Assembly (NCBI GenBank): GCA_030753015.1
Contig: JASMDC010000055.1
Coordinates: 1 to 16,847, forward strand
Length of the DNA stretch: 16,847 nucleotides
Reading direction: 5' to 3'
Origin: Candidatus Undinarchaeales archaeon
Lineage (GTDB): Archaea; SpSt-1190; JASMDC01
Part shown: in pieces, positions 1,153 to 14,597 of the stretch
Position numbering within the stretch: position 1 is the stretch's first letter
Layout of the letters: each line of letters starts with the position of its first letter
The notes under the pieces: generated by a model
Databases searched by the model: none
Seen by the model: the letters and a program-made list of their open reading frames with translations, nothing else
What the model was told of the DNA's origin: nothing
Program-made: the position numbers and the translations under genes

Positions 1153-1182
1153 TGGTACTTCCCCGATGCGATGCATGCAGTC

Positions 1183-1736: not shown

Positions 1737-1928
1737 ATGACGAGCATGAACGATATCAAGGGAGCGATCAAGGAGGCGGCCCGCAAGGTCGCAAAGGAGA
1801 ACGGCTGGACGTACCGCGAGTCGGCGGAGATGGTCAAGGACCTGACCCTCGGGATGATCGAGGGCACCGTAGAGATCCTCACCCAACCTGAAGTGCGGGA
1901 CGGTTGCTGCGGCCCCGACTGCGACTAG
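1737..1928 (+). CDS. Small helical protein with Cys-rich tail, 63 aa
   Basis: SD GGAGTGA before ATG 1737. MTSMNDIKGAIKEAARKVAKENGWTYRESAEMVKDL...DGCCGPDCD, with GC3-biased codons. Confidence 0.6.
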   Translation: MTSMNDIKGAIKEAARKVAKENGWTYRESAEMVKDLTLGMIEGTVEILTQPEVRDGCCGPDCD

Positions 1929-1950
1929 CGACGAAGGGGGACGATCCGTA

Positions 1951-2337
1951 ATGAGCAAAGATGTTGACGAGAAGGGGATGCTAGAGTTGCTCGGTGACCT
2001 GGTCGATGCCTCCTTAGGGATAGTCTGGGCGTCCCTCGAGCTGGCTTACGCGTTCGTCGTGGTCTTTGCGAACGTGACCGGCCTCCTCCCCGGGACCGCG
2101 GATACGACCGAGACATTCTCCCTCGGAAAGAAGGCCACTGTCCACGTCAACGACTTCAGCCCGGACAGGGTCGCGGACATGGCCCCCGTGCTCTGCGAGG
2201 TCGAGGACCAGCTCAAACGCCTCTGCAGCAGCGGCCCTGTCGACGTCACGGTCAGCATAGAGGTCGACGGCGGAGACGTCCCCGTCTGCATCGAGGACTC
2301 TGTCCCAAGCGATTCTTGGTCCCTGTCGCACACGTGA
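1951..2337 (+). CDS. Hypothetical protein, 128 aa, possible N-terminal hydrophobic helix
   Basis: GAAGGGGG RBS and coding-like codon bias. No family recognised. Confidence 0.55.
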   Translation: MSKDVDEKGMLELLGDLVDASLGIVWASLELAYAFVVVFANVTGLLPGTADTTETFSLGKKATVHVNDFSPDRVADMAPVLCEVEDQLKRLCSSGPVDVTVSIEVDGGDVPVCIEDSVPSDSWSLSHT

Positions 2338-2416
2338 TGCTCCCCTGGGGGGAAGGAAACCCGGGGGCCGATGACGGCCGTGGGGACGCCACCGCCCCCC
2401 GGCCCGAGGCCCCCGA

Positions 2417-2475
2417 TGTTCACGTCCCGGCACGTGAAACGAACCGTGTTTCACGTGCTGATAATGCTTTTATTG
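2417..2475 (+). promoter_or_regulatory. Operator inverted repeat and TATA box of the Ubl operon
   Basis: Perfect 11-bp inverted repeat GCACGTGAAAC (2430-2440)-N7-GTTTCACGTGC (2448-2458). Extra half-site TGTTCACGTC (2417-2426). TATA-like TTTTATT at 2468-2474. Confidence 0.7.
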
Positions 2476-2549
2476 CGGCCGAGGCCAACTCCTCATTGAG
2501 CGACGAGGGAGACCCCGTCGCCCCAGATAAAGTGACTCTGGTGAACACT

Positions 2550-2873
2550 ATGGTACAGAACGACGAAAAGACCGTGAAGAAACCGGTCACCGAGCAGAAG
2601 ATGGAAGACGCGCCCACCGCTCCCACGCCGACGGCGACGGATGGCGGCGTCACCCTGCGCGTTGGCGTAGGGCTCTTCCACAAGCCCCGTAACGTGAGCC
2701 TCTCCGGCTCCGAGACCGTGAACGACGTGCGCCATCTCTTAGGTGTGCCCGTCGAGTACGTGGCCGTGGTCCCCGGCAGGGGAGTCGCCGAGGGCGGCTG
2801 CGCTGTGTGCGAGGCAGTCGACGAGGGCGAGGAACTCCTCTTCGTGCCCCTGACCGCCGGCGGATCCCGGTAG
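2550..2873 (+). CDS. Ubiquitin-like (beta-grasp) modifier precursor ending ...LTAGG-SR, 107 aa
   Basis: SD GGTGA at 2540-2544. VTLRVGVG..RNVSLSGSETVNDVRHLLGVP...EELLFVPLTAGG aligns by eye with ubiquitin (TLEVEPSDTIENVK..GIP...TLHLVLRLRGG). Di-Gly at 2859-2864 is followed by Ser-Arg-stop. Sits next to E2 and JAMM genes, with E1 in the same operon. Confidence 0.82.
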   Translation: MVQNDEKTVKKPVTEQKMEDAPTAPTPTATDGGVTLRVGVGLFHKPRNVSLSGSETVNDVRHLLGVPVEYVAVVPGRGVAEGGCAVCEAVDEGEELLFVPLTAGGSR

Positions 2874-2882
2874 GCGGTTGCC

Positions 2883-3803
2883 GTGTCGTCCGTCGCCGAG
2901 GTGAACCTGCGCGAGCGCGTAGCGTCCGCGGTGGAGGCTGCGCTCTCGGCGTTCGCACGGTTGCACGACCGGCCGCTCACCCTGCTCCCCCTCTCGAACG
3001 GGGAGCTGGCGGCACTTGACGCGGAGATCGACGGCGACGCGCAGGTCGGTCCACGTCAGCAGGTGCGGACGCTGGTGCGCAAGGCGGCCGGGAGACCGAT
3101 CATGCTGGTGGCTGGCGCAGGTCCGGTCAAGACCTATACAATGGCCAGGATGGCCCGCGATGCCTACGACCTCTCGCTGTGCATGGCGACGTTCATCGTG
3201 CGCGAGCTCGAGCACCTTCCAGAGGTGCTGGAGGCCGCCCGTCTTGAGAAGCGGTTGGTCGCAGCCAACAACCTGGGCAGGCTGGGATTCCGTGTACAGG
3301 ACGAGCGCGGGTCTCGATTCTCGGGAAAGGTGGAGGTGCGCAAGGGGCCGATCAAGGGGAGCTATAGGATGGATGTGCTCCTCCCGCCCCGGTTCCCCGA
3401 CACCCAGCCGTTCTTCCGGCTGGTCGACGTGCCGCGCCACCCCAACGTCTACGACAGCGGCGACGTGTGCCTGGGCCACTTCGTGTGGAACCCGGCGCTG
3501 GACATCACCGTCCTGGTGGAGCAGGTGCGTCACGTGCTGGAGAACCCGAATTACGAGGACGGATTGCACCGGGAGGGCGACGAAGAACAGGAGGAGCTCT
3601 CGGAGAACAGCGTACGTCTGCTGTCCCTGGTCGCTGAGCTTGTCAGTGAGCGGAAGCCCAGTGTGACCTACGCCGAGATACGGCAGGTGGCCTCGGAGCG
3701 CGGAGGGATGAGCCACGACGAGATCGATGGCGCGATACAAGAGCTCATCACCAGGGGCGAGATCTTCGAGCCCCAAGCTGGAAGGTACCAGCCGCTCATC
3801 TGA
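2883..3803 (+). CDS. Ubiquitin-conjugating enzyme E2 (UBC fold) with N-terminal extension and C-terminal winged-helix domain, 306 aa
   Basis: YRMDVLLPPRFPDTQP...HPNVYDSGDVCLGHFVWNPALDITVLVEQVRHVLENPN matches eukaryotic UBC (FPTDYPFKPP..HPNINSNGSICLDIL..WSPALTI..LLCDPN). HPN at 3438-3446, Cys at 3468-3470. Tail EIDGAIQELITRGEIFEPQAGRYQ resembles the archaeal MCM C-terminal wH. Confidence 0.9.
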   Translation: MSSVAEVNLRERVASAVEAALSAFARLHDRPLTLLPLSNGELAALDAEIDGDAQVGPRQQVRTLVRKAAGRPIMLVAGAGPVKTYTMARMARDAYDLSLCMATFIVRELEHLPEVLEAARLEKRLVAANNLGRLGFRVQDERGSRFSGKVEVRKGPIKGSYRMDVLLPPRFPDTQPFFRLVDVPRHPNVYDSGDVCLGHFVWNPALDITVLVEQVRHVLENPNYEDGLHREGDEEQEELSENSVRLLSLVAELVSERKPSVTYAEIRQVASERGGMSHDEIDGAIQELITRGEIFEPQAGRYQPLI

Positions 3804-3819
3804 ACAGGTAGTGATCCAT

Positions 3820-4290
3820 ATGGGAGAGCTGAAAGAGGGAATTGGCGAGGATAAGGGAGTGGGGATCCCCCACGTCCTCATAGATAGGGACATCGAGCGC
3901 GATATGTATGCCGCTGCCATGGCGCAGTACATCATCAACGGCGGGGAGGCGTCGGGACTCTTGGTAGGCAGGGTTGAGGCGGACGTCGTTACCGTCACGT
4001 CAGCACCCCATATGCCCGGCGAGAGCGAGCACTCCTTCTGTCGCATCCCCCCCCTCACGGCCGCCGAGCTGGCGGCCTCGCTGCCCGACGACGTCGCCGT
4101 GGTCGGCTGGTGGCACTCCCACCCCAGGTTCGCGCGAACGCCGAGCGCCACGGACCTCGCCACCATCGACTCCATGGTGCGGTCGTCACCTCTCGTGGTG
4201 TCGGTAATCGTCGACCCACTGGTCTGCGCAATGGACGTCTACATCACCGACGACAGCGGGACATGGCACGTGGATGGAGGGTACGGGTGA
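3820..4290 (+). CDS. JAMM/MPN+ (JAB) metallo-isopeptidase, Rpn11-like, 156 aa
   Basis: EASGLLVG ... VVGWWHSHPRFARTPSATD ... VVSVIVDP is a complete E-xn-H-S-H-x7-S-x2-D JAMM motif. GGTAGTGA RBS before ATG 3820. Confidence 0.92.
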   Translation: MGELKEGIGEDKGVGIPHVLIDRDIERDMYAAAMAQYIINGGEASGLLVGRVEADVVTVTSAPHMPGESEHSFCRIPPLTAAELAASLPDDVAVVGWWHSHPRFARTPSATDLATIDSMVRSSPLVVSVIVDPLVCAMDVYITDDSGTWHVDGGYG

Positions 4291-6953
4291 TGCCGAGTCT
4301 CGCTAGGCTGGCGCTTGACCGGGAACGTTCGCGGGCGCGGTCCAATAACAGGGGCGGGACGGAGCCATCTCTTGGTAGTCTGCTCGCGTTAGTTAGCAAT
4401 GAAATGGAACAAATCCCGGAGATCGAGCTCGGGGGGGAGGAGGTTGCGGACACGTCGCGCGAGCTCGCAGAGGCGCTCGGCCGCAACGATTATCGAGAAG
4501 CTATCATATTCCTAGTGATCCTGGTAAGGATGACCCGATCGATCATCGAGAGAAGTGGAGCGCATGAGATGCAACCGATAAACGGCTCGGTGGTCCGCTC
4601 GCTCCTCCGGTCCACTGAAGAGCTCGAGTGGATCCACGGCGATGGTGACGATCTCCCAGGAAAGCTCGTGTTCCGCCTGGACGAGGGTCTAGTAACGGGA
4701 ACCGAGCGTGCATTGGAGAACGAGGACCCCCGCGTGGTGGAGTACTGGAGGGCCTCCGGCCGCTGGCTCGAAGAGAGCGCTAATCCCGACCACGGGGAGA
4801 GGCCGAGGTGGCCGGAGGGATCCGACCCGACCGTGCCGCGACCTGGGCTCCCGCTCTCCTTCCTGTGCACGGCCCACGCGTGGGCCTTGGCGGCCATCCT
4901 GCGCTCCTGCTCTACACTCCGACGGGGGCGGTACCTCGTCTACCTGCAACTGCTCCACCCTCTCGCTGTGTCGCTCGACCTGCTGCGCCAGCTCGATGAC
5001 GAGCACGACAGGTACCTGACAGTGAGGGATGGCGAGGATGAGGATGGCATCTTCTTCCACGAGGCGCTCGACGTGCTCGCCCGTGAACGGGCCTCTTTGG
5101 AGAGAGTTGTGGCAGACCACCTCTCCTCGCTCTACGGCCTCGAGAGGCTAGAGTTCATCCCGCCCCTCTGGCTTGAGGGGCAAGTGAACATCGAGAGGCC
5201 GCGCCCCGCTGGCAGGGAACGTAATGTCGGGCATCCGGTGACCGAATCGGCCAGCCGCATTACGGTCTTTCTGGCGAGCCGGGACCTTGCAGGCTCGGTG
5301 GAATCGCTTGCCCGGGCCTGCGCTGCTACGACGGACGCGCTCGACCCGGTCCACGGCGTCCCGTGGCACAGGAGGACCCACTTGGCGGACAGGTTGAGGT
5401 CGACCGCGTGCGACATCGCCTGGGGGATGAACCGCATCCAGAACAGCGGGGGAGTGGTCGCTGACATGGCGACGATAACCCGCTTCCTCAGGCACGTGGA
5501 GGGAAGGACGGACAACAGCTATGGATCGCCCATCGCGTGGACCCTCGACGCCTTCAGGATGCTGGCCGAAGAACACTTGCTGGCGATGGCCGACGCTCTC
5601 GATCCGCCTTCGGCCGGCGAGGTGGGAGTCCGACCCGACCATACCCAGTTCGGCGGCATCCCCTACCAGTTCTCGTCGGGTGTAGCACTCTCAAGAGCGC
5701 GCGAGCACCTCCGCCGGTATGACGGTCCACTTTCGTCGGAAGGTCTCGGCGGGGACTGGGGCGAGGAAGAGGGTGCTCGGCTTCTAGCCGCTCTCCGGGA
5801 GCTGGTCCGGTCGCGTGATGGGCTGGCCGCCGCCATCGACATGATGATCGCGCGGGAGAACGAGGACATGACACATCTCACCGACGGCCACGTGCTCTGG
5901 GGGGACGGGCTGGCGGCCGTGCCGCGCCTGGAGCCGGTGTCCGAGGAAACACACCGTGATGAGGGGGGGACGCTCGAACGGACCGTCCGGAACGCCGTCG
6001 CGCTCGAAGACGGCACGGGCATGCTCCACTATGTGTACCCACGCTTCATCGACCGGGCGCTGGACATCATCGAGGAGCGCGGGAACGATATCCGCCCCCT
6101 CGGGACGAGCGGCTCTGGTGAGCTGGTGATCGAGATCAACGGCCGGGTGGTGACCGCTCACCGCAACCTCGACTACTACACATGCTCGTGCGAGGACTCG
6201 CACTACCGTTCAGCAGAGGACCGACACTTGTGCAAGCACGTGGCGGTCGCGGCCATCCTGTTCGGTGACTTCGAGCTGCGAGAGGATCTGCACCTGCAGC
6301 GGGCAGAGGCCCTCTCCACACAGTTCTCTGACATCAGGGAGCGGGTGCTCGCCGAGCGCGGTGGCCGTGCCGATCATCTCAGGCAGACCGTACTGCGACA
6401 GCTGGTGGGGACGACGGACAGGAACGGAATTGAACTCCGTCAACGTCGGGCTGAGCTGCATGATCGCATCCGGAACCTTGAGGTACAGCGTATGGAGACG
6501 CCCCTCCACAACCAAGAACTACGCCGGGAGCTCCGGCAGGAGCTGGAGCGATACAACCTCGAGCTCGAGTCCATCAACAGACCGCTGGAAGGGGCGGGGC
6601 CGGCCAGGCGCAGGCCCGGCGAGGTGCCAAGGAGGGGGGGACCGGACGTTCTGGAGGGGCAGAGGGAGATTCTCAGGACCAGGATCATGGACATCCAAGC
6701 GAATATCGAAGAGATCAACGCGCGGATAAGGGGAGAGGAACCCGAGGTTCTCGAAGGTAACGAGCGCCGGGAACTCATTCGCCAGCAGGCGTCCCTTGAG
6801 CAAGAGCTAGCACGGTCAAGGCACCGGTTGGAAGACGTCCAGCACCAGCTCCAGCGGTCCGAGGCCCACGGTCGCTCCGGACCGGTCACGCGAGCAGTAG
6901 TGCGGGCGCCACCAGGGATGTGGGAGTGCGCGCCACCGGGGGAGGGGAGCTGA
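4290..6953 (+). CDS. Large protein: uncharacterised helical domain, SWIM zinc finger, coiled coil and WECxPP tail, 887 aa
   Basis: TGATG overlap with the JAMM stop. SWIM YTCSCEDSHYRSAEDRHLCKH (6183-6239). Heptad-rich C-terminus. Only 2 Lys. Confidence 0.8.
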   Translation: MPSLARLALDRERSRARSNNRGGTEPSLGSLLALVSNEMEQIPEIELGGEEVADTSRELAEALGRNDYREAIIFLVILVRMTRSIIERSGAHEMQPINGSVVRSLLRSTEELEWIHGDGDDLPGKLVFRLDEGLVTGTERALENEDPRVVEYWRASGRWLEESANPDHGERPRWPEGSDPTVPRPGLPLSFLCTAHAWALAAILRSCSTLRRGRYLVYLQLLHPLAVSLDLLRQLDDEHDRYLTVRDGEDEDGIFFHEALDVLARERASLERVVADHLSSLYGLERLEFIPPLWLEGQVNIERPRPAGRERNVGHPVTESASRITVFLASRDLAGSVESLARACAATTDALDPVHGVPWHRRTHLADRLRSTACDIAWGMNRIQNSGGVVADMATITRFLRHVEGRTDNSYGSPIAWTLDAFRMLAEEHLLAMADALDPPSAGEVGVRPDHTQFGGIPYQFSSGVALSRAREHLRRYDGPLSSEGLGGDWGEEEGARLLAALRELVRSRDGLAAAIDMMIARENEDMTHLTDGHVLWGDGLAAVPRLEPVSEETHRDEGGTLERTVRNAVALEDGTGMLHYVYPRFIDRALDIIEERGNDIRPLGTSGSGELVIEINGRVVTAHRNLDYYTCSCEDSHYRSAEDRHLCKHVAVAAILFGDFELREDLHLQRAEALSTQFSDIRERVLAERGGRADHLRQTVLRQLVGTTDRNGIELRQRRAELHDRIRNLEVQRMETPLHNQELRRELRQELERYNLELESINRPLEGAGPARRRPGEVPRRGGPDVLEGQREILRTRIMDIQANIEEINARIRGEEPEVLEGNERRELIRQQASLEQELARSRHRLEDVQHQLQRSEAHGRSGPVTRAVVRAPPGMWECAPPGEGS

Positions 6954-9613
6954 TGCCCGATATATTCGACCGAGCAGTCCAGGAGCTCGAGAGCACCAGG
7001 AATGATGGACATGACTCCAACGAGCGCGCGCTGCAGCTCGCCAACATCGTGCACCGGCACGCCGAGGCGGAGTTCGGTGTCGACGGGCTCGAGCGCTCTC
7101 TTGACCCGCTGGCGACGTGCCTGCACGGCCGCGCGCACGCGGGAGAAACGTACGCCTGTCTCGTGCTACTCGCCGCCGCGTGCGACATCGCTGCGGACGT
7201 TGTGAACAGTACACGAGATGGTGGAGGGAACGTCCGTCAGCAACACACCCGGCCTCTACTCCAGATCGCGGGCGATCTCCTCTTCAATGATGATAGCACC
7301 CTCATCAACCAGCGGGAGGTCGTGCCCGGCTCCTTGGGCGAGGTCGTCATGGTGCCTGCCCGTGCAGGGACGCTGACACGTCCGCACGATGAAGACCGAG
7401 AGGGCCGATCTCATGACGACCTGCTCGCCTGGTGCGCGGTCCACCTCTGGGCCATCGGGCGAATCCTCGACGAGTGCTCGGGCGACGGCTTGAGCGCTGC
7501 CGGTATCGCGCGATTTGCCACGGTCGTACGGGCGCTGCGCACATTGGACCACGCGCAGTTCATGCACGCCGAGATCGAGGAGTACCCATGGGAAAGGGAT
7601 GCCTATGTGGAAGCTGCGCTCGCAGCTCTATTCAACAAGCGCAGCCGCCTGACGGGTCGGCTCGCCCAGTCCCTGCGCGACCGGCTCGGGCTCGAGCCGC
7701 CGCTGTTCATACGGCCGGGCGCACAGTTCATTCCAGGGAGGTTGTCGGTGGAGGACTGGGACCGGACCACCGTTAGGGAGGCTCTGGAGGTGGCCCGCCA
7801 CCTGGATGCTGGTGAGCTCAACGACGCACTCCGGTCCCTGGCACGGGCCATCCACGCCGGACTTAACGCGGACGACATCGGTCAGGATGAGCGGAGCACG
7901 ACCGCCCGTCGACTGCGGGCGATCTCCTGCGGCATCGCTTGGGGGATGGCGGCCCCGGTGGCGTACGACGACATGAACCGCGCCATGGGTGAGCTGGTCA
8001 GCTTCACGCGGGAGTGCTTCCAGATCAACCTTCCTGAAACGCGCGAACCGGGCCTCCCGCGGGCCGTCCGGGCGCACGTCGAGGCGCATCTGGAGGCGCT
8101 GGCGGTCGCGATCGATCCACCTCACGCCATTACATCCCGGGACGCGCCGCGGGCGTCCATCTGGCGCGGGCAGTCCGATCTGTTCCGTGTACCGCGGGAC
8201 CTGAGCGCCGACCACATCATCTCAAGTGTCCACGACCGGCTCCGTGTGCACAATCCGAGTTCCGACAACGTCGACCGGGTGAGCGACGAGCGTCGGGACG
8301 CCGAGGAGGAGCTCGCGAGGGCCCGGGGTCAGCTGCTCTCCTTGCTGGAGGAGATGGAGGACCAGGCAGACATCATGCTCGAGGACGACGATGCCATCTG
8401 GCCATTGCGCGGGATCGTCATCCCCTTAATCCCGGGCGCCACCGGTGAACTGCAAGGGGAAGGGGTGCCGTTCTTCGAGATGGAGTACCGGCGAGACGGC
8501 ACTCCCCTGAACATAGACATAGATTCCGAAACCGGCCAGCTGATCCGCACCACGGGGACCGCTTCACGCGGGAACATAATCCCGGACATCGCCACCCGCT
8601 ACCTGGAGGCCGCCGAGGAGCACGGGAGGGCCAGGGACGAGGCCGCGCGGCATGGCCTGCGGCGGTCGCGGGAGGAGCGGTTCTCCCGACAGGAGGCGGT
8701 CCCCGGATGGGACCAGGGCAGGTTACGGCGGGCCGTGGTCGTGGTCGCCGGAGTGGGCGGCCTGGGCGCGGCGGTGGTGGACCAGCTGGCACGGATGGGC
8801 GTCGGGACGGTCCGCGTCGTCGACCACGACCGGGTGGAGGACTCCAACATCTCGCGCCAGTGCCTCTACATCGCCGACGACGTCGGGAGCCTCAAGGTGG
8901 ACGCTGCCGCGCGACGGGTGTCGGACCTCGACGGGCCCACCCGCGTGGTCCCGCGACCCGCGTACTTATGCGAACGCAACGCTCTCATGCTGGTGGCCGG
9001 CGCCGACGTGGTGTTCGACTGCCTGGACAGCGAGAAGAGCAAGCACCTGCTCAACCACGCGTGCGCGCGGGCGGGGGTACCGCTGGTCCACGGGGGATGC
9101 ACGGGATTCATCGGGCAGGCGATGGCCGTGGTGCCGGGACGGACGGCGTGCCTGGCGTGCCGGGAGCTTACCTTCTCGGTGGCGGACACGGCCAGCTGCA
9201 CCCGCGACGAGACCCTGCCCATCGTGGCCCCCACGGCCCAGCTGGTGGCGTCCCTGCAGGTGGATCTGGCCCTGCACGTGCTCATGGGGACGGGCGACGT
9301 GCCGTCGGGGCTGCTCCTGTACGATGGCCGCGGGCCGGGCGTGCGGTCCGTGCCGGTGGAGCGCAGGGACGACTGCCCTGTGTGCGGAGGTAACGGGACG
9401 ACGGACGACGATGTGCGGACGGCGCTCTCACTCCAGTCTCAAGATTCCCTGCTCCAGATCGCCGGGGCCGTGGGGATGGAGCACGCCGACGGGATGGACA
9501 CCAGCAACCTCGTCGAAGCGCTCGTCGACGTGTTCTCGGCCCTCCCTGACGGCAGGCACCGTGCGCTACGACTGGCGTCGGGCGTGCAGTTCATCGAGGA
9601 GGCGATGTCGTGA
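6953..9613 (+). CDS. Ubl-activating enzyme E1 (ThiF/MoeB/UBA domain) fused to a ~575-aa N-terminal helical domain, 886 aa
   Basis: TGATG coupling. RFSRQ (8678), GVGGLG (8750), VVDHDRVEDSNISRQ, DVGSLK, DCLDS, Zn pairs CLAC and CPVC, and a crossover-loop Cys in ASCTRD (9197). Confidence 0.9.
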   Translation: MPDIFDRAVQELESTRNDGHDSNERALQLANIVHRHAEAEFGVDGLERSLDPLATCLHGRAHAGETYACLVLLAAACDIAADVVNSTRDGGGNVRQQHTRPLLQIAGDLLFNDDSTLINQREVVPGSLGEVVMVPARAGTLTRPHDEDREGRSHDDLLAWCAVHLWAIGRILDECSGDGLSAAGIARFATVVRALRTLDHAQFMHAEIEEYPWERDAYVEAALAALFNKRSRLTGRLAQSLRDRLGLEPPLFIRPGAQFIPGRLSVEDWDRTTVREALEVARHLDAGELNDALRSLARAIHAGLNADDIGQDERSTTARRLRAISCGIAWGMAAPVAYDDMNRAMGELVSFTRECFQINLPETREPGLPRAVRAHVEAHLEALAVAIDPPHAITSRDAPRASIWRGQSDLFRVPRDLSADHIISSVHDRLRVHNPSSDNVDRVSDERRDAEEELARARGQLLSLLEEMEDQADIMLEDDDAIWPLRGIVIPLIPGATGELQGEGVPFFEMEYRRDGTPLNIDIDSETGQLIRTTGTASRGNIIPDIATRYLEAAEEHGRARDEAARHGLRRSREERFSRQEAVPGWDQGRLRRAVVVVAGVGGLGAAVVDQLARMGVGTVRVVDHDRVEDSNISRQCLYIADDVGSLKVDAAARRVSDLDGPTRVVPRPAYLCERNALMLVAGADVVFDCLDSEKSKHLLNHACARAGVPLVHGGCTGFIGQAMAVVPGRTACLACRELTFSVADTASCTRDETLPIVAPTAQLVASLQVDLALHVLMGTGDVPSGLLLYDGRGPGVRSVPVERRDDCPVCGGNGTTDDDVRTALSLQSQDSLLQIAGAVGMEHADGMDTSNLVEALVDVFSALPDGRHRALRLASGVQFIEEAMS

Positions 9614-10479
9614 GCACCGGATTCCCTGGAGCAGCGCCCCGTGTGTACGGGCGACGAATGGGTCGGGGGCCGACGGTCGAGGTCTACGAGGAGGGATTCG
9701 TCGTCGAGCGCTGCCCGACTTGTGGCAGGCACCTCAAGGATATGACCGACTGGCCGAATGTAAGGGTTACCGGGATCGAGGACGCGGTGGACGACGTGCG
9801 CCGCGAGTCCCTTTCGCGGCTGGTGCGGCGCGGGCCCTTCCTGCTCCAGTGGGGGACCGTGCCGGGATGCGCGAGCGGAGCGATGCAGCGGTGCCTGGTC
9901 GACGAGCTGGGCCTGAACTGGGCGGCCGGGGCCGAGGTGCACCCGGTCGGCGACAGGTCGGTCCTCGTCATTAGAGGTCGGCGGTGGTGCATGGTCACCC
10001 TCGATCAGGACGAGCTCGTCGCGCACCTCGAGGTGGATGATGGGAGGAGGCTCGAGCTGGGCGTCGCTCGACTCGGCGACCGTGTCGACCTCCATATCCC
10101 TCTCGACGACGACGATGTCGATGATAGGACCGCTCCTTACCTCTGGGCCCGGAACCCCGCTGCGGTGCACTCCGCGAGGGCTGCTGTAGCCCATCTCAAG
10201 GGATTCGTCGGCACGGACGCGGATCCGGACCGGATAGCTGAGCTGTGGCGCGCCGAGGGATTCAGCGGACCATGGGCCCGTTACCACGAGTTCAGGGGTG
10301 TCCGGATCGTGCAGGTCGGCGGTTACGCGCTCTACCTCGACGACAACGTCCTTACGCTTGTCGACGCGGACAGGATCGGCGGTGGGCTCGACGGTCCTCC
10401 GCCGGTGACGTTCCGTCTGGCGCGGGTGCTGTACGAGGGGATGCTGCACGAAGAGCGGAGCGGTGGCGGCAGTGGCTGA
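9610..10479 (+). CDS. Hypothetical protein with CxxC knuckle and central beta-rich domain, 289 aa
   Basis: GTGA overlap with the E1 stop and GGAGG RBS. ERCPTCGRH. Coding-like codon bias. Only 2 Lys. Confidence 0.7.
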   Translation: MSTGFPGAAPRVYGRRMGRGPTVEVYEEGFVVERCPTCGRHLKDMTDWPNVRVTGIEDAVDDVRRESLSRLVRRGPFLLQWGTVPGCASGAMQRCLVDELGLNWAAGAEVHPVGDRSVLVIRGRRWCMVTLDQDELVAHLEVDDGRRLELGVARLGDRVDLHIPLDDDDVDDRTAPYLWARNPAAVHSARAAVAHLKGFVGTDADPDRIAELWRAEGFSGPWARYHEFRGVRIVQVGGYALYLDDNVLTLVDADRIGGGLDGPPPVTFRLARVLYEGMLHEERSGGGSG

Positions 10480-12286
10480 GGACGGAACGATCCTTCTCGC
10501 GTGCGAACGCGCGCACCACCAGGCCGTCGCCGGGAAGAGGGATGACATGATGGAGTGCCTCCGGTTCGCCGGTGATAGTATCTCTAACATCATGCGCACC
10601 CGGTCTTTCTCGCGACGACCGCGTGCCCGTTCCATGGATTCATTGCAGTTGGACGAGCGAATTGCGTCCTTGTCAGCCCACCTCATCACTGGTGGCACAG
10701 GTCCCGCCCCGGGCCCACGAGTGATCGCAGTACCCCTTGACACGGGGCGGACGTGCCCTGACCTCAGGGACGGACCATTAGACACACAACTACATCTGTG
10801 CTGCCCCCCGCGCACGTTGTGCGCGGCGGAATTATGGACGCTCTCCCGCGTCTTTCACTTGGCCATCTGCGGCGCAGGTGACGTGCATGAGCGCATAGTC
10901 ATGTCCGACCTCGTACGCATAGGGAGAGCGCTCACAAGCCTGACCGATCCCCTGTTCCCTTTTGGGGGGGTCGCCTCCGGGTTGGGAGACGACCTCTTTA
11001 TGTACCCTCTTGATATGCTCTCCTTTAACCGGACTTCATCGGATGACGGTGCGGATGCAAGGCACGCAGTCGTTCGGGAAAGGCTCGACGATGTCGCGCA
11101 GGTCGAGCGCCACCATATCGTCGACGTTGCCCTGGACGCGGCCCTCGGCCTCCAGTGCGGCAGGACCGAGGACATGGCGCGCGGCCTCACCTCCCTAGAG
11201 GAAATGTGCCGGATAACCGCGTCGGTCCTGGAGGGCGGGACGGAAGAACCCGGTGAGAGGGACGTCACGCTCCTCCGGTTCATATCAGCCACCCTTGCAC
11301 TGGAGGACGTCATCGCGGCGACTGAGACGGATATCTTCTTCGATACCATGGAGCTCGGAAGGTCCGTGCTCACGTCAAGTTATATCGGGGCGTACTACGG
11401 CGGGATGCCGGACCCCGTACAGTTCAGGCTGGCGTGCGAGCACCATATCGAGGCATGCGCGAGCGCGCTCGACACCAGAGCGGACCTATCGGGGGCAGTC
11501 TGGCAGGGCGTGGGTCAGTGGTATCAGCTCGGTCCCGACGAGGGGGTGGTCCTTCCGCTCCTGAACGCCCGGGAGCGACTCATGCGGTACAGGTCAGACT
11601 TCAGACCCCCGGAGGACGCTGTGGATCACGAGGTCACGTCAGCGTCCAGAGCCCTGTCGCGGCAGCGCGACCAGCTCCTTGACGTGCTGGACGCACGGAT
11701 CGCTGCTCTGACGGAGGGCGCTATGAGAACTGCAGGGCGTCGGTACGTATCGCTCTCGTATCCCGAAGGAATAGTCGCCGCCGCAGAGGGCGCAACGGTC
11801 GGGCCCGACGTACCGGGCGACCAGGTCTGCGCGACCGTTCGGAGCGGGGAACACCCTGAATGGGATGTGACCCGGTGGACGCTGGTACAGGCCCAGCACT
11901 TCATCAAGAAGCACGGGTATCTCATCGATCGCCTGGGTACCAGCCAAACGGGCGAGCCGGTGCTTGTCGTGGACTCGCACGTAGTGGCGCTGGGTCAGGA
12001 CAACCTGGATCGAGACCGCTACCGCCCCCTCTACGAGTGCTACTCATGCCGGGAGTTTCGTGAGCAGAACGGGACCCGACCCCGGCTCTGCAAGCACCTA
12101 ACGGCGGCGCTCATCATCATGGGCCGACTGGGTGAGCGCGAGGGTGTCGACCTCAGCCTGCTCGACCGGGCCCTCGCATTGATAAGGGAGGAGGTCGGGA
12201 TGACGGGCATCCGCGGGCGGTACCGCAGCAGCGCGTGCGCGGGCGACGGGGTATGGGAGTGTCGGGCGCCAAGGGAGGGGGTATGA
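10463..12286 (+). CDS. Paralog of 4290-6953: helical domain, SWIM-like zinc finger and WEC tail, ~607 aa (start may be GTG 10472)
   Basis: YECYSCREFREQNGTRPRLCKH (12038-12097). LGTSQTGEPV motif. Shared helical-domain motifs. Ends GVWECRAPREGV. Confidence 0.78.
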   Translation: MAAVAEDGTILLACERAHHQAVAGKRDDMMECLRFAGDSISNIMRTRSFSRRPRARSMDSLQLDERIASLSAHLITGGTGPAPGPRVIAVPLDTGRTCPDLRDGPLDTQLHLCCPPRTLCAAELWTLSRVFHLAICGAGDVHERIVMSDLVRIGRALTSLTDPLFPFGGVASGLGDDLFMYPLDMLSFNRTSSDDGADARHAVVRERLDDVAQVERHHIVDVALDAALGLQCGRTEDMARGLTSLEEMCRITASVLEGGTEEPGERDVTLLRFISATLALEDVIAATETDIFFDTMELGRSVLTSSYIGAYYGGMPDPVQFRLACEHHIEACASALDTRADLSGAVWQGVGQWYQLGPDEGVVLPLLNARERLMRYRSDFRPPEDAVDHEVTSASRALSRQRDQLLDVLDARIAALTEGAMRTAGRRYVSLSYPEGIVAAAEGATVGPDVPGDQVCATVRSGEHPEWDVTRWTLVQAQHFIKKHGYLIDRLGTSQTGEPVLVVDSHVVALGQDNLDRDRYRPLYECYSCREFREQNGTRPRLCKHLTAALIIMGRLGEREGVDLSLLDRALALIREEVGMTGIRGRYRSSACAGDGVWECRAPREGV

Positions 12287-13032
12287 TGCCTGGCGGGAGC
12301 GGGGAGGGCGCCAGCTCCTGGAGCGACCGGCAGAGGGAGCTCGCCGAGTACGCCGGTATAATCCTGATGGAGGAGGGTGAGACCTTCGAGCAGGCGGAGA
12401 GGCGCCAGGAGAGGGAGATGCGTGAGCGCGGGGCCAGGCGCACAGGAGTTACCGGCGAGCAGACCGGCCAGGCTCCTGGGCAGCGACCGCGCGAGGTGTC
12501 CGGGGCGTCTTCGGACAGCGCGTCCCGGGGCGGGGCGCCGGCGGCGGACCTCGAGGGCGCGAGGACCGGCGGGCGGGACCGACCGGCGTGGACCACGTGG
12601 CGGGATCCGGGAGGCGTCGAGTGGCGGATCACGCTGGACAAGCTCAACAGGGCCGCCAACATCCTCCTGACCGAGTTCGACCTCAGGCGCATGGGCACCA
12701 GCGCGGTCGGAGAGATCGTGCTCGAGATCGCGTCCCGCGTCGTCACGGTGAACCTGGAGCGCCGCTACTGCGTGTGCTCATGCGAGGACTACCGCTCAAG
12801 CAGCGAGGGGGACCACCACCTGTGCGAGCACGTAGTGGCCGCGCTCTTCATCATGGGGGAGCTGGGGGAGCGCGAGGGCATCGATCTCGGCCTCTTCTCC
12901 CCGCTCGTCCCCGCGATCAGGAACTGGCTCCTTTTCGATGGGAACCCTGATACCCTTGCGGAGGACGGGAAAGGGCGGAGCGAGGGTTGGGAATGTCGGC
13001 CACCGGGGGATGGGAGGGAGTGCGACGGGTGA
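12283..13032 (+). CDS. SWIM zinc-finger protein with low-complexity N-terminus and WEC tail, 249 aa
   Basis: ATGA overlap and GGAGGGGG RBS. MGTSAVGEIV...YCVCSCEDYRSSSEGDHHLCEHVVAAL. Ends EGWECRPPGDGRECDG. Confidence 0.78.
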   Translation: MMPGGSGEGASSWSDRQRELAEYAGIILMEEGETFEQAERRQEREMRERGARRTGVTGEQTGQAPGQRPREVSGASSDSASRGGAPAADLEGARTGGRDRPAWTTWRDPGGVEWRITLDKLNRAANILLTEFDLRRMGTSAVGEIVLEIASRVVTVNLERRYCVCSCEDYRSSSEGDHHLCEHVVAALFIMGELGEREGIDLGLFSPLVPAIRNWLLFDGNPDTLAEDGKGRSEGWECRPPGDGRECDG

Positions 13033-13130
13033 GGGTGACAGCGGGGCCGACAAGCTGGTGGACCCATGGCGGTCGCTGGCATGCTCGTGCTGCGGCACGG
13101 GTGATGATGAAGGAGGTGTTCCGATCATGA
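13029..13130 (+). CDS. Possible 33-aa coupling peptide
   Basis: GTGA overlap with the upstream stop and ATGA overlap with the downstream start. MRVTAGPTSWWTHGGRWHARAAARVMMKEVFRS. Confidence 0.35.
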   Translation: MRVTAGPTSWWTHGGRWHARAAARVMMKEVFRS

Positions 13131-13351
13131 CGATGTACACGGTGAAACGGATGAAGGGAGGATGGTCTGTCCACGACCACGTCGAGGACGAGGACTTCGA
13201 GATACCGGACGGCGCGGTCATCACCTACGAGGTGCGGACGCGGCTCACCGGTCCGGAAGAGATGATGGAGGTCGTCGGATCCAAGACTGGCAAGCTGGCA
13301 CTGGTGGCGGCGGTGTGCATGATGCCGTGCCCGGAGGAGGTGGCGGGATGA
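13127..13351 (+). CDS. Small beta-rich hypothetical protein, 74 aa
   Basis: Strong SD AGGAGGTG before ATG 13127. MTMYTVKRMKGGWSVHDHVEDEDFEIPDG...CMMPCPEEVAG. Confidence 0.65.
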   Translation: MTMYTVKRMKGGWSVHDHVEDEDFEIPDGAVITYEVRTRLTGPEEMMEVVGSKTGKLALVAAVCMMPCPEEVAG

Positions 13352-13476
13352 CGCTGTGCAGGATGCGCCAGGCCGGGATCGAGCCCGTCTCGTATCATGT
13401 CGGCCCGGTCCTGCTCGTCTACCATTTCATGCTGAAGCGAGCGCTGAGGGAGATGAGACGTGTGAAGGGGAGGTGA
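13348..13476 (+). CDS. Small hypothetical protein, 42 aa
   Basis: SD GGAGGAGGTGG and ATGA overlap. MTLCRMRQAGIEPVSYHVGPVLLVYHFMLKRALREMRRVKGR. Confidence 0.5.
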   Translation: MTLCRMRQAGIEPVSYHVGPVLLVYHFMLKRALREMRRVKGR

Positions 13477-13491
13477 TGGAGGAGAGATCGT

Positions 13492-13689
13492 GTGCTGAAC
13501 GCCTTCGTCAGGCTGGTGGTGGATATACTCCCGCTACCGCTCGGCCTGACGGCGGGGGTGCCGGGCATCTCGTCCGGCACGAGCCTCGAGGGTAAAGCGC
13601 ACCCGGCGGGCGGAGGGCTCGCGCGGGGCGGGGAGAGAGGCGGTGAGCCGTCCATGGCGGAAAGACGGAAAAAGGTGACACCCATATGA
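13492..13689 (+). CDS. Possible small hypothetical protein, 65 aa (alternative: 13476-13595, 39 aa)
   Basis: GGAGGAG RBS before GTG, and its stop overlaps the nuclease ATG. The reading frame is ambiguous and the sequence is low-complexity. Confidence 0.3.
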   Translation: MLNAFVRLVVDILPLPLGLTAGVPGISSGTSLEGKAHPAGGGLARGGERGGEPSMAERRKKVTPI

Positions 13690-14597
13690 CACCGACAGAA
13701 CAAGGGGAAAGATCCATGCCCGAACTCGAGGACTGGTTCCATAGGTACAACAAGTGGTCGTTCAGCAAGCACAGGCTCTGGAACGAGTGCAGGCGACAGT
13801 ACTGGTACCGGTACATCGGCACGGCACTGCGGACCTCTGATGAGGTGGACGTTGCGCGACTGAAGGCCTTGCGCGGGCTGACACCCCGCGCCGCCCTCGA
13901 GGGTATGCTGGTCCACGATGCGATCGAGAAGCAGATGGACCGCTTCGCCAGAGGGATGACCGTCAATGAGGAGCTGGCGGCCAAGCACCTCGTCAGCGAG
14001 ATGGCCAAGTTCACGGGAACACCCCGGGATAAGATCATCGAGTTCCACAACGGCGTCGAGCAGCCCGAGAACTACTTCGAGCGGGTGCAAGACGGGGGCA
14101 TCGGGAAGCTCGGGACGTTCTTCGCCAAGATATGGCCACGCATCGAGGGCTCGGAGCACCTGAGGCACGAGAAGTTCGACGAGGTCACGGTGGGCGACGT
14201 GGTCGCGACCGTGAAGGTCGATCTCGCATGCCGGATGGCCGACGACACGATCGTCGTCTACGACTGGAAGACAGGGCGCGAGGATCCCGCGTACGAGAGC
14301 GAACTCCAGCTCGGCGCCTACGTGCTGTGGGCGAGCCGGTATTACAGCGCAGCACCGGAGAAGGTGCGGAGCGAGCTTGTGTACCTGGCGACCGGGAACG
14401 TACGCAGGCACGAGTTCTCCGCCGAGCAGCTCGACAGGGTAGGGCTGCTGATCGTGTCGGACTTCAAGAGGAGGAACAGCTCGTACGAGATGGGCGCGTT
14501 CTCCCCCGACCCCGGTCCGTGGAAGTGCCAGGGGTGCCGGTTCGCGACTGTGTGCCCCCACTCGCTGCACGGGGAGGCGCCGGGAGGAGGTCCCTGA
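13686..14597 (+). CDS. PD-(D/E)XK nuclease, RecB/AddB/Cas4-like, with 4-Cys Fe-S staple, 303 aa
   Basis: WSFSKHRLWNECRRQYWY, GMLVHDAIE, KVDL...YDWKTG, QLGAY, and C-terminal CQGCRFATVCP. SD AGGTGA. Confidence 0.88.
   Translation: MTPTEQGERSMPELEDWFHRYNKWSFSKHRLWNECRRQYWYRYIGTALRTSDEVDVARLKALRGLTPRAALEGMLVHDAIEKQMDRFARGMTVNEELAAKHLVSEMAKFTGTPRDKIIEFHNGVEQPENYFERVQDGGIGKLGTFFAKIWPRIEGSEHLRHEKFDEVTVGDVVATVKVDLACRMADDTIVVYDWKTGREDPAYESELQLGAYVLWASRYYSAAPEKVRSELVYLATGNVRRHEFSAEQLDRVGLLIVSDFKRRNSSYEMGAFSPDPGPWKCQGCRFATVCPHSLHGEAPGGGP

What the first reader, a model, noticed from the sequence alone, without database searches (positions are those of the whole stretch)
4854..11695. One unrecognised ~300-aa helical domain triplicated and fused to different effector ends (SWIM, E1, SWIM)
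Collinear motifs in 4290-6953 / 6953-9613 / 10463-12286: LCTAHAWALAAIL / WCAVHLWAIGRIL / LCAAELWTLSRVF; RLRSTACDIAWGM / RLRAISCGIAWGM / LLRFISATLAL; EEHLLAMADALD / EAHLEALAVAID / EHHIEACASALD; AREHLRRY / VHDRLRVH / ARERLMRY; LVRSRDGL / LARARGQL / LSRQRDQL. Inference: the paralogous scaffold may hetero-oligomerise and physically link E1 to the SWIM modules in one complex.
Basis: seen in the sequence. Interest (0 to 1): 0.78.

Follow-up and report, generated by a model that had tools for sequence, protein, structure and literature searches.

The report
Orphan helical domain shared by E1 and SWIM proteins
A rare ubiquitin-like tagging operon of a marine archaeon carries three copies of a helical domain found nowhere else, one joined to the activating enzyme (E1) and two to SWIM zinc-finger proteins, which hints at, but does not show, that these proteins work as one assembly.

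Summary
Three genes of one translationally coupled operon share a collinear all-alpha domain of about 320-390 residues. They are SWIM-A (4290-6953), E1 (6953-9613) and SWIM-B (10472-12286).

- **Homology statistics:** BLASTP gives 3e-13, 8e-8 and 2e-4. On the helical part alone, hhalign gives 6.1e-18, 4.6e-5 and 2e-4. A profile built without SWIM-B finds SWIM-B at 3.2e-12 among 33,493 ORFs of the same genome; the next best is 0.43.
- **Orphan status:** Pfam, NCBIfam and PADLOC give no hit. No specific PDB fold match was found. A profile search of 1.84 billion representative proteins returned three hits, one per paralogue family.
- **Context:** the gene order is TM protein, Ubl candidate (ends GG-SR), canonical HPN-Cys E2, JAMM peptidase, SWIM-A, ThiF-type E1, unknown, SWIM-B, SWIM-C. 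This is the Bil gene order (Ubl-E2-DUB-E1) with eukaryote-like E2 and JAB and with added SWIM proteins.
- **SWIM label:** it holds. The two best structural matches of 48,161 chains are ZSWIM8 and Shu2.
- **Hetero-oligomerisation:** this remains untested. The complex prediction gave no verdict. Overlapping start and stop codons and exclusive co-occurrence are only circumstantial.

Verdict: a real, new variant of a prokaryotic ubiquitin-like conjugation operon. The function of the shared domain is inferred, not shown.

The parts
1951..2337 (+). P0008, 128-aa protein with one hydrophobic helix; its stop overlaps the ATG of the next gene (TGATG)
   Evidence: Translation; junction; no Pfam, NCBIfam or PADLOC hit.
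2337..2873 (+). Ubl candidate. Long N-terminal extension, then a C-terminal globular part of about 75 aa ending ...FVPLTAGGSR (GG plus two residues).
   Evidence: Translation; start. The assignment is an inference from its position (first gene in the Ubl-E2-DUB-E1 order) and its GG tail. No sequence match to a beta-grasp family was found.
2883..3803 (+). E2: UBC core with HPNVYDSGDVC (Cys196), an N-terminal extension of about 150 aa of unknown kind, and a C-terminal winged-helix-like end
   Evidence: UQ_con 5.8e-12, 45.8 bits against a cut-off of 27. Nearest solved sequences are eukaryotic UBE2N and UBE2A. Motif. MCM_WH_arc 0.0022, below threshold.
3820..4290 (+). JAB/JAMM peptidase with the HSHPRFARTPSATD motif
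   Evidence: Prok-JAB 1.3e-10. Nearest solved sequences are Rpn11 and an Rpn11-like archaeal protein. Motif.
4290..6953 (+). SWIM-A, 887 aa: N-extension, shared helical domain, SWIM module, coiled coil of about 200 aa, conserved tail
4836..5969 (+). Copy 1 of the shared helical domain (SWIM-A residues about 183-560)
   Evidence: AF2 model is all-alpha, pLDDT 66, pTM 0.71.
6012..6284 (+). SWIM module of SWIM-A, with CSCEDSHYRSAEDRHLCKH at 6183-6239
   Evidence: Pfam SWIM 0.0033, 17.4 bits against a cut-off of 19.6. Pattern. Homologous to the modules of SWIM-B and SWIM-C.
6903..6941 (+). C-terminal tail APPG(M/L)WECAPP, nearly invariant in 7 orthologues
   Evidence: mean identity 0.88, against 0.54 in the coiled coil before it.
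6953..9613 (+). E1, 886 aa: N-extension, shared helical domain, ThiF/MoeB-type adenylation domain, short C-terminal helical end
7421..8608 (+). Copy 2 of the shared helical domain (E1 residues about 157-552). Its last 35 residues or so align with the pre-SWIM strands of SWIM-A (GQLIRTTGTASRGNII against GNDIRPLGTSGSGELV).
8708..9382 (+). ThiF adenylation domain: GxGGxG, two CxxC zinc pairs (CLAC, CPVC) and the invariant Cys749 in TASCTRDE
   Evidence: ThiF 1.3e-52. ThiF and MoeB are the best solved relatives at 4.8e-28. Invariant columns; motifs.
9610..10479 (+). P0004, 289 aa, unknown; its GTG start overlaps the E1 stop (GTGA)
   Evidence: No family found and no usable Atlas hit.
10472..12286 (+). 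SWIM-B, 604 aa: N-extension, shared helical domain, SWIM module, tail GVWECRAP
10784..11701 (+). Copy 3 of the shared helical domain (SWIM-B residues about 105-410); the most divergent copy
11867..12136 (+). SWIM module of SWIM-B, with the variant pattern CYSCREFREQNGTRPRLCKH at 12038-12097
   Evidence: No Pfam hit at E <= 5.
12283..13032 (+). SWIM-C: low-complexity N-terminus, SWIM module (12769-12831), tail GWECRPP; no helical domain
   Evidence: Pfam SWIM 0.0013, 18.7 bits. For the AF2 model, ZSWIM8 and Shu2 are the two best of 48,161 chains.
13127..13351 (+). Small ORF (74 aa) preceded by GGAGGTG; unknown; may end the operon
   Evidence: no Pfam hit.
13686..14597 (+). Cas4-like PD-(D/E)XK nuclease. 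It is a neighbour; membership of the system is not shown.
   Evidence: PDDEXK_1 1.9e-19; Cas4 and Aga_Cas4-like models.

Best explanation
The three regions are true paralogues of one orphan all-alpha domain. The domain lies inside a single operon that encodes a complete ubiquitin-like conjugation set: a Ubl candidate, a canonical E2, a JAMM peptidase and a ThiF-type E1, plus three SWIM zinc-finger proteins.

Most likely the domain is a family-specific protein-protein assembly module. Through it the E1 and the SWIM-A and SWIM-B proteins would sit in one complex. The Ubl, activated on E1 and passed to E2, would then be delivered where the SWIM modules bind, so the SWIM proteins would act as E3-like adaptors or as the first targets.

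Shown here:
- the homology of the three copies;
- the orphan status of the domain;
- the operon anatomy;
- intact catalytic motifs of E1, E2 and JAB;
- the SWIM nature of the C-terminal modules.

Inferred:
- that the first gene product is a Ubl;
- that the copies touch each other;
- the E3-like role of the SWIM proteins;
- any role in defence.
For: - **Homology:**
- **Exclusivity:** the three-paralogue profile hits only 3 of 1,835,955,588 representatives, one per family. Only these three ORFs match in the whole genome. Plasmids and phages give no match. A domain that always occurs as co-encoded paralogues, and never elsewhere, is what is expected of a heteromer that arose by duplication. This is an inference.
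- **Coupling:** TGATG, GTGA and ATGA overlaps lie at 4290, 6953, 9610-9613, 10463/10472-10479 and 12283-12286, and also at 2337.
- **Co-occurrence:** E1 and SWIM-A orthologues have the same longest-contig lengths, 61,673 and 86,219.
- **No catalytic signature:** the 16 columns invariant across 14 sequences are mostly Leu, Ala and Arg, and the only Glu and His among them sit two residues apart in one helix (R..E.H..A...A). There are no internal repeats and the model is all-alpha.
- **Evolutionary rate:** the domain changes faster than the catalytic parts, and at a like rate in both families. Mean identity is 0.60 in E1 and 0.64 in SWIM-A, against 0.88 for ThiF and 0.82 for the SWIM module.
- **Enzymes look active:**
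- **SWIM modules resemble ZSWIM8 and Shu2:** Z 4.9 and 4.5, with the next row at 2.8. In print ZSWIM8 is an adaptor of a cullin ubiquitin ligase; this comes from the PDB entry title and recalled knowledge.
Against: - No direct evidence of contact exists.
- SWIM-B orthologues were found in only 2 clusters, against 6 for E1 and 6 for SWIM-A. None of them has the 61,673 or 86,219 contig length. A three-way complex may therefore not be general, and the core may be SWIM-A plus E1.
- For the two contigs where pairing can be guessed, the identities to the window do not run in parallel. The E1 N-region is 84% and 74% identical, while SWIM-A is 60% and 78%.
- The Ubl assignment has no sequence support.
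- The AF2 models are of middling confidence (pLDDT 66 and 63), built from alignments of 14 and 10 rows.
Confidence: 0.4

Rival explanations
1. Common-partner docking. Each copy independently binds the same third component, for example the E2 (through its unusual N-terminal 150 residues or its winged-helix end), the Ubl or P0004. This would mirror the way eukaryotic E1 and E3 both bind E2. There would be no direct contact between the paralogues.
For: - ThiF/MoeB-type E1s lack the ubiquitin-fold domain that recruits E2 (recalled knowledge). The passages read from PMC10557695 say BilD also lacks it and binds E2 elsewhere.
- The E2 here has two extra regions of unknown role.
- Exclusivity and translational coupling fit this model as well as the heteromer model.
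Against: Nothing tested here speaks on it.
Confidence: 0.25
2. Sensor or target-recognition domain. The copies bind an invader-derived or cellular ligand and so direct or switch on conjugation. The paralogues would then give different specificities.
For: - The domain evolves faster than the catalytic parts.
- The contig has a defence-island flavour: two Csa3/CARF-like proteins, a Cas4-like nuclease and an AAA_23 ATPase.
- No match to the E1 shared-domain protein, and no DNA match to the operon, was found in the one other species of the genus held, which is 99% complete.
Against: - A general sensor domain would be expected in other architectures as well, and none was found.
- The columns invariant among paralogues are mostly hydrophobic or small core residues.
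Confidence: 0.15
3. Evolutionary leftover. The E1 gene arose when the 5' two-thirds of a SWIM-A-like gene was joined to a ThiF gene. In this case the N-terminal part of E1 has only a structural role, or none.
For: - E1 keeps a remnant of the pre-SWIM strands just before the ThiF domain, which marks a break point inside the SWIM module.
- The SWIM-A gene lies directly upstream of E1.
Against: The region is kept in all 5 full-length E1 orthologues, down to 43% identity. 31% of its columns are invariant and no frame disruption is seen. This argues for selection on the region.
Confidence: 0.1
4. Chance or compositional similarity of Ala/Arg/Leu/Asp/Glu-rich, high-G+C coding sequence.
For: The genome is G+C rich and the proteins are acidic. 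The E1 vs SWIM-B comparison alone is weak (2e-4 and 7.7e-4).
Against: - Among 33,493 ORFs of the same composition the next best score is E 0.43, against 3.2e-12 for SWIM-B.
- The N-extensions of the same proteins show nothing.
- The motif order is collinear in three independent aligners.
Confidence: 0.01

Closest known systems
BilABCD / 6C-type bacterial ubiquitination-like operons (Ubl-E2-DUB-E1); passages of PMC10557695 read
   Same: - The order of the four core genes is the same: Ubl, E2, JAB, E1.
- The Ubl has a conserved Gly followed by a few residues that a JAB could trim.
- The E1 carries a large N-terminal region ahead of the active adenylation domain.
- Distribution is sporadic, next to defence-type genes.
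   Different: - The N-terminal part of BilD is an inactive adenylation domain (Pfam PF14459). Here it is an all-alpha orphan domain, and no PF14459 hit was found.
- The E2 here is a canonical UQ_con with HPN-Cys, not a CEHH or Prok-E2 type.
- SWIM-A is inserted between the JAB and E1 genes, and P0004, SWIM-B and SWIM-C follow E1.
- The host is an archaeon.
Eukaryote-like archaeal Ub operon of 'Caldiarchaeum subterraneum' (Ub, E1, E2, small RING E3, Rpn11-like); PMC5654768, search listing and abstract only
   Same: An archaeal operon with a ThiF-like E1, a canonical UBC-type E2 and an Rpn11-like JAMM. The Rpn11-like protein of that system (6fjv) is among the best solved matches of the JAB here.
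   Different: No RING protein was found in the window. Three SWIM proteins and the shared helical domain are present instead. The E1 here is twice as long.
SWIM zinc-finger proteins (Pfam PF04434), e.g. ZSWIM8 and Shu2/Sws1
   Same: - A CxC-xn-CxH pattern preceded by beta strands.
- The best structural matches of the SWIM-C model are ZSWIM8 (Z 4.9, rmsd 3.5, 84 aligned) and Shu2 (Z 4.5, rmsd 4.7, 93 aligned).
- ZSWIM8 works with a ubiquitin ligase (entry title; its role is recalled).
   Different: - Pfam scores lie just under the gathering cut-off.
- SWIM-B has CxxC in place of CxC.
- No known SWIM protein was found carrying this helical domain.
- A conserved WEC-x-PP tail follows the module here.
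Haloarchaeal SAMP / UbaA / desampylase system
   Same: A ThiF-type E1 and a JAMM peptidase in an archaeon. The family models do hit: UbaA at 134 bits and the desampylase at 25.7 bits.
   Different: Both scores are far under the curated cut-offs of 450 and 130. SAMPylation needs no E2 (recalled), whereas here a canonical E2 is present.

Membership tests
BilABCD-type operon | Gene order Ubl-E2-JAB(DUB)-E1 | tested here: met
   The order is 2337-2873, 2883-3803, 3820-4290 and then E1 at 6953-9613, with SWIM-A inserted before E1. The reference order comes from passages of PMC10557695.
BilABCD-type operon | [quoted passage not shown] | tested here: not met
   No PF14459 hit at E <= 0.01. The model of the paralogous region is all-alpha.
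BilABCD-type operon | E2 of the CEHH / prokaryotic E2 type | tested here: not met
   The E2 matches eukaryote-type UQ_con (45.8 bits) and carries HPN...C. Its best solved relatives are eukaryotic E2s.
BilABCD-type operon | Protection against viruses by Ubl conjugation | not testable with these tools
   Context only: Csa3/CARF-like proteins, a Cas4-like nuclease and an AAA_23 protein lie on the contig.
ThiF/MoeB/E1 adenylating enzymes (PF00899) | Pfam gathering score, nucleotide-binding GxGxxG, zinc CxxC pairs and a loop cysteine | tested here: met
   178.8 bits against a cut-off of 28.1. GxGGxG at 600, CLAC at 733, CPVC at 808, and Cys749 invariant in 5 of 5 orthologues.
UBC-type E2 (PF00179) | Gathering score and the HPN-x(n)-Cys active site | tested here: met
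   45.8 bits against 27; HPNVYDSGDVC at residues 186-196. Only profile positions 44-124 of 140 are matched.
JAMM/MPN+ peptidase | The H-x-H-x7-S-x2-D motif and a Pfam score over the cut-off | tested here: met
   Prok-JAB 41.6 bits against 25; HSHPRFARTPSATD.
Ubiquitin-like beta-grasp modifier | Beta-grasp fold | tested here: inconclusive
   No Pfam hit at E <= 5 for the C-terminal 97 residues. No solved relative at E <= 10 other than a chance row.
Ubiquitin-like beta-grasp modifier | C-terminal Gly-Gly, exposed or followed by a short trimmed tail | tested here: met
   The protein ends ...TAGGSR.
SWIM zinc finger (PF04434) | CxC-xn-CxH pattern | tested here: met
   Present in SWIM-A, in 6 of 6 of its orthologues, and in SWIM-C. 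SWIM-B and its orthologue have CxxC-x13-CxH instead.
SWIM zinc finger (PF04434) | Pfam gathering score | tested here: not met
   17.4 bits for SWIM-A and 18.7 bits for SWIM-C, against a cut-off of 19.6. SWIM-B has no hit at E <= 5.
SWIM zinc finger (PF04434) | Fold like solved SWIM proteins | tested here: inconclusive
   ZSWIM8 (Z 4.9) and Shu2 (Z 4.5) are ranks 1 and 2 of 48,161 chains, with the next row at 2.8. The Z values are low in absolute terms, the model has pLDDT 63, and Foldseek found nothing at E <= 0.001.
Any described domain family, for the shared helical domain | A match in Pfam, NCBIfam, PADLOC, PDB sequences or PDB folds | tested here: not met
   - No family hit.
- The E1 search of PDB sequences matches only residues 536 onward.
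- Foldseek finds nothing at E <= 0.001.
- The best VIA rows are generic three-helix bundles over about 100 of 426 residues, Z 11.5 or less, under the tool's stated mark of about 13 for helical models.

The most novel reading that the evidence does not exclude
The operon encodes a so far undescribed form of ubiquitin-like machinery. In this reading the activating enzyme is built into one complex with SWIM-finger proteins by way of paralogous scaffold domains. The SWIM proteins would act as the E3-like, target-selecting parts, and their invariant WEC-x-PP tail cysteine could take part in transfer. That would make SWIM fingers, not RING fingers, the specificity factor of an archaeal E1-E2 cascade. 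It would also give a prokaryotic precedent for SWIM proteins working with ubiquitin ligases, as in ZSWIM8.
Probability: 0.12. Interest if true: 0.85.

Novelty: new variant of a known kind. Interest (0 to 1): 0.58.

Why it matters
Prokaryotic E1-E2-JAB-Ubl operons are under active study as relatives or forerunners of eukaryotic ubiquitination and as antiviral systems. How they choose targets without RING or HECT ligases is largely open.

This operon combines the most eukaryote-like E2 and JAB types with three SWIM proteins and with an E1 whose N-terminal half is a paralogue of two of them. If the shared domain assembles these proteins, it would show a new way to couple activation to target choice. 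It would also give SWIM fingers a role in an archaeal conjugation cascade.

The set is compact: nine genes in about 11 kb. All catalytic motifs are intact. Near-identical copies are present in marine metagenomes of several studies. The idea is therefore directly testable by reconstitution.

Tried and rejected
- **Complex prediction:** E1 residues 150-520 against SWIM-A residues 178-570, each with its family alignment, gave no verdict (score 0.00, mark 0.32, controls not run). This is neither for nor against binding.
- **Related loci:** Genome contigs gave 130 pattern matches, of which 1 was a relative, and that one is only a generic ThiF at 35% identity. Metagenome contigs gave 108 matches and none confirmed. 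No orthologous locus could therefore be read, and the gene content of the 61,673- and 86,219-base contigs is unknown.
- **Own phylum:** 17 genomes were searched and only the window's own genome matched.
- **Plasmid and phage collections:** no match.
- **ESM Atlas:** no usable hit for the domain. For P0004 only scores of 0.80 or less.
- **Fold searches of the helical model:** Foldseek's best E was 0.23. VIA wide and VIA second look returned only generic helical bundles. Parts beyond model residue about 230 were barely tested, so a known fold for the second half is not excluded.
- **Mixed alignment A5:** this alignment of domain-only and full-length rows was discarded before the big search. A local hmmbuild showed it would make a 751-position profile that included ThiF columns. 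The clean three-row alignment A6 was used instead.
- **Internal repeats in the domain:** none significant; the best off-diagonal E was 0.014.
- **RNA:** no RNA holder is listed among the sequencing runs.
- **Non-coding RNA:** no Rfam family and no tRNA in the window.
- **rRNA:** no SSU rRNA in the genome bin.
- **Literature:** no paper held the terms SWIM with E1-like, E2-like and archaea. SWIM with ThiF, JAB and ubiquitin-conjugating gave 2 papers, neither containing SWIM. Two further searches found nothing relevant. The 2006 survey PMC1779556 contains the word SWIM 0 times. Subscription-only papers are not covered. These include later surveys of prokaryotic RING and treble-clef domains, which are recalled but were not seen.

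Full report
**What is there.** The window is the first 16,847 bases of a 20,370-base contig (C68) of a 3.85-Mb metagenome-assembled genome. The genome is archaeal. It encodes RNA polymerase subunit N, a family that rings only in the four archaeal control genomes. Its phylum holds only 17 species genomes in the collection.

On the + strand lies a run of genes whose starts and stops overlap or nearly touch:
- P0008 (1951-2337), which has one hydrophobic helix.
- A Ubl candidate (2337-2873, ending ...TAGGSR).
- An E2 (2883-3803).
- A JAMM peptidase (3820-4290).
- SWIM-A (4290-6953).
- E1 (6953-9613).
- P0004 (9610-10479).
- SWIM-B (10472-12286).
- SWIM-C (12283-13032).
- A small ORF with a GGAGGTG site before it (13127-13351).

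Six junctions overlap by 1 to 17 bases, depending on which SWIM-B start is used (TGATG, GTGA or ATGA). A Cas4-like nuclease follows at 13686-14597.

All five motif triplets are in the translations and fall in common columns.
- BLASTP gives 3e-13 for SWIM-A vs E1 over 442 columns, 8e-8 for SWIM-A vs SWIM-B and 2e-4 for E1 vs SWIM-B.
- With family alignments of 5 E1, 7 SWIM-A and 2 SWIM-B sequences, hhalign gives 1.7e-15, 7.9e-14 and 7.7e-4.
- Cut to the helical part alone, the values are 6.1e-18 (E1/SWIM-A, 323 columns), 4.6e-5 (SWIM-A/SWIM-B, 176 columns) and 2e-4 (E1/SWIM-B, 276 columns).
- The N-terminal extensions of the same proteins give only E 0.06-0.12.
- The strongest control is genome-wide. 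A profile built from the helical part of SWIM-A and E1 only was run with all filters off over 33,493 six-frame ORFs of the same genome. It finds SWIM-B at 3.2e-12, and the next ORF scores 0.43.

Compositional bias is therefore excluded. The third copy is the most divergent. Its first motif region contributes little on its own (domain E 66).

**Extent and architecture.** The shared region is about 320-390 residues: SWIM-A 183-560, E1 157-552 and SWIM-B about 105-410.
- In E1 the alignment runs on into a remnant of the strands that precede the SWIM finger in SWIM-A (GQLIRTTGTASRGNII against GNDIRPLGTSGSGELV). The ThiF domain then replaces the zinc finger.
- SWIM-A continues with the SWIM module, about 200 residues of coiled coil and a tail.
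- SWIM-B continues with the SWIM module and a tail.
- SWIM-C has only the module and the tail. Against the SWIM-A and SWIM-B family profiles it scores 3.6e-21 and 2.6e-22.
- All three SWIM proteins end with G-x-W-E-C-x-(P/A)-P. In 7 SWIM-A orthologues this tail is nearly invariant (mean identity 0.88), while the coiled coil before it is at 0.54.
- The tail DNA also carries a GGAGG-like site for the next gene. The Glu and Cys codons nevertheless differ between copies (GAG/GAA, TGC/TGT), so the motif is kept at the protein level.

**The domain is an orphan.**
- Pfam, NCBIfam and PADLOC give no hit for it.
- Word-seeded searches of 5.8 billion proteins gave 6 E1-type, 6 SWIM-A-type and 2 SWIM-B-type clusters, and nothing else.
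- A profile of the three paralogous domains was read by HMMER against every one of 1,835,955,588 representatives. It returned 3 proteins at E <= 0.001, one for each family.
- Nothing was found in plasmids or phages.
- Nothing was found in 16 other genomes of the phylum, among them the one other species of the genus, which is 99% complete.
- An AF2 model of SWIM-A 175-600 with 14 aligned rows is all-alpha, with about 11 helices, pLDDT 66 and pTM 0.71.
- Foldseek finds nothing at E <= 0.001.
- VIA-align finds only generic three-helix bundles over about 100 residues, with best Z 11.5. This is under the tool's stated mark of about 13 for helical models.
- There are no internal repeats.
- The second half of the model was barely tested by these searches.

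**The surrounding enzymes.**
- *E1:* ThiF 1.3e-52. The closest solved sequences are ThiF and MoeB (4.8e-28). It has GxGGxG, two CxxC pairs and an invariant Cys749.
- *E2:* it passes UQ_con (45.8 bits against 27) and carries HPNVYDSGDVC. Its best solved relatives are eukaryotic UBE2N and UBE2A. It also has about 150 extra N-terminal residues and a winged-helix-like end, the latter below threshold.
- *JAB:* it has the full JAMM motif and is nearest to Rpn11.
- *Ubl:* the assignment rests on gene position and the GG-SR end only. No beta-grasp match was obtained.
- *SWIM label:* this is reasonable. CxC-x13/15-CxH is present in SWIM-A and SWIM-C. Their Pfam SWIM scores of 17.4 and 18.7 bits lie just under the 19.6 cut-off. 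The two best of 48,161 chains for the SWIM-C model are ZSWIM8 (Z 4.9) and Shu2 (Z 4.5), with the next row at 2.8. SWIM-B has CxxC in place of CxC.

**Comparison with known systems.** The order Ubl-E2-DUB-E1 is that of BilABCD operons (passages of PMC10557695). Two defining parts differ, however:
- BilD's N-terminal half is an inactive adenylation domain (PF14459), whereas here it is the orphan helical domain.
- The Bil E2 is of the CEHH or prokaryotic type, whereas here it is canonical.

The enzyme types are closer to the eukaryote-like archaeal operon with a RING E3 (PMC5654768, abstract only). No RING is present here, and SWIM proteins are present instead. The UbaA and desampylase models score far under their cut-offs. 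I found no paper that links SWIM proteins with E1/E2 operons, but subscription journals were not searched.

**How it may work.** The facts that bear on mechanism are these:
- the exclusive occurrence of the domain as co-encoded paralogues;
- the coupled translation;
- a conservation pattern dominated by Leu, Ala and Arg, with no catalytic signature;
- an evolutionary rate that is faster than the catalytic parts and alike in E1 (0.60) and SWIM-A (0.64).

I take the domain to be an assembly module that joins E1 to the SWIM proteins (confidence 0.4). The main rival is that each copy docks the same third partner, such as the E2 (0.25). The one complex prediction gave no verdict. It is listed only among the things tried.

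Against a general three-way complex, SWIM-B orthologues are fewer (2 clusters) and none shares the two long contigs. The core may therefore be SWIM-A plus E1.

**Reality of the locus.** Near-identical DNA is held by public marine and seawater metagenome runs. Eight runs hold half or more of the sampled words, and two of these may be the source. Laid on the contigs of four runs from four studies, all 30 bins of 1900-13400 are covered, many pieces with no differing letter. Contig C68 is not a compositional outlier in its bin. Its tetranucleotide correlation is 0.964, which places 12 of the 67 contigs of 10 kb or more below it. Its G+C is 63.8%, against 60.3% for the bin.

**Verdict.** The interpretation remains open. 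The system is a new variant of a known kind, a prokaryotic ubiquitin-like conjugation operon, with an orphan domain whose role is inferred.

Noticed in passing
6903-6941, 12248-12283, 12982-13011: All three SWIM proteins end in a conserved G-x-W-E-C-x-(P/A)-P tail. It is nearly invariant in 7 SWIM-A orthologues, although the coiled coil before it is the least conserved part. It overlaps a GGAGG-like site for the next gene, yet synonymous codon differences show selection at the protein level. In the AF2 model it is disordered (pLDDT under 40). Its role is unknown.
   Followed up: partly
G000 contig C26, locus L004:697-2808 (- strand): The same genome has a 703-aa ORF with at least three tandem E2/UEV-like domains (UQ_con 6.8e-23 in 3 stretches, plus UEV and RWD hits). 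The repeated (P)PxxPP motifs seem to lack the catalytic cysteine context. This may be a second ubiquitin-related locus.
   Followed up: partly
8500-8608: E1 keeps a remnant of the pre-SWIM beta strands (the G-x-x-I-R-x-x-G-T-[AS]-x-x-G motif) just before its ThiF domain. This marks where a SWIM-A-like gene and a ThiF gene were joined.
   Followed up: partly
415-1176 (-), L008:1431-1913 (contig 17330-17812), 13686-14597, L008:3698-4471: The contig carries two Csa3/CARF-like proteins (HFX_2341_N 1.6e-9; CARF_Card1/Csa3_N about 4e-4, below threshold), a Cas4-like nuclease and an AAA_23/SMC_N-type ATPase at its end. This gives it a defence-island-like setting.
   Followed up: partly
1951-2337: P0008, a small protein with a hydrophobic helix, has its stop overlapping the ATG of the Ubl candidate (TGATG). 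It is probably the first gene of the operon.
   Followed up: no
4290-4600 and orthologues P0016-P0021: The first 100 residues or so of SWIM-A come in two sequence types. P0018 has the N-terminus of one type and the rest close to the other, which suggests recombination between loci.
   Followed up: no
window 1900-13400 in runs X3, X4, X6, X8: The operon recurs at near identity in seawater and marine metagenomes of several independent studies. In contrast, the DNA search of the other species of the genus held here (G006) matched only three short stretches (about 50-95 bases, 76-86% identity) at window 15116-15207 and nothing in the operon.
   Followed up: partly
12038-12097: SWIM-B and its orthologue P0023 have CxxC-x13-CxH instead of the canonical CxC-xn-CxH of SWIM fingers.
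   Followed up: yes
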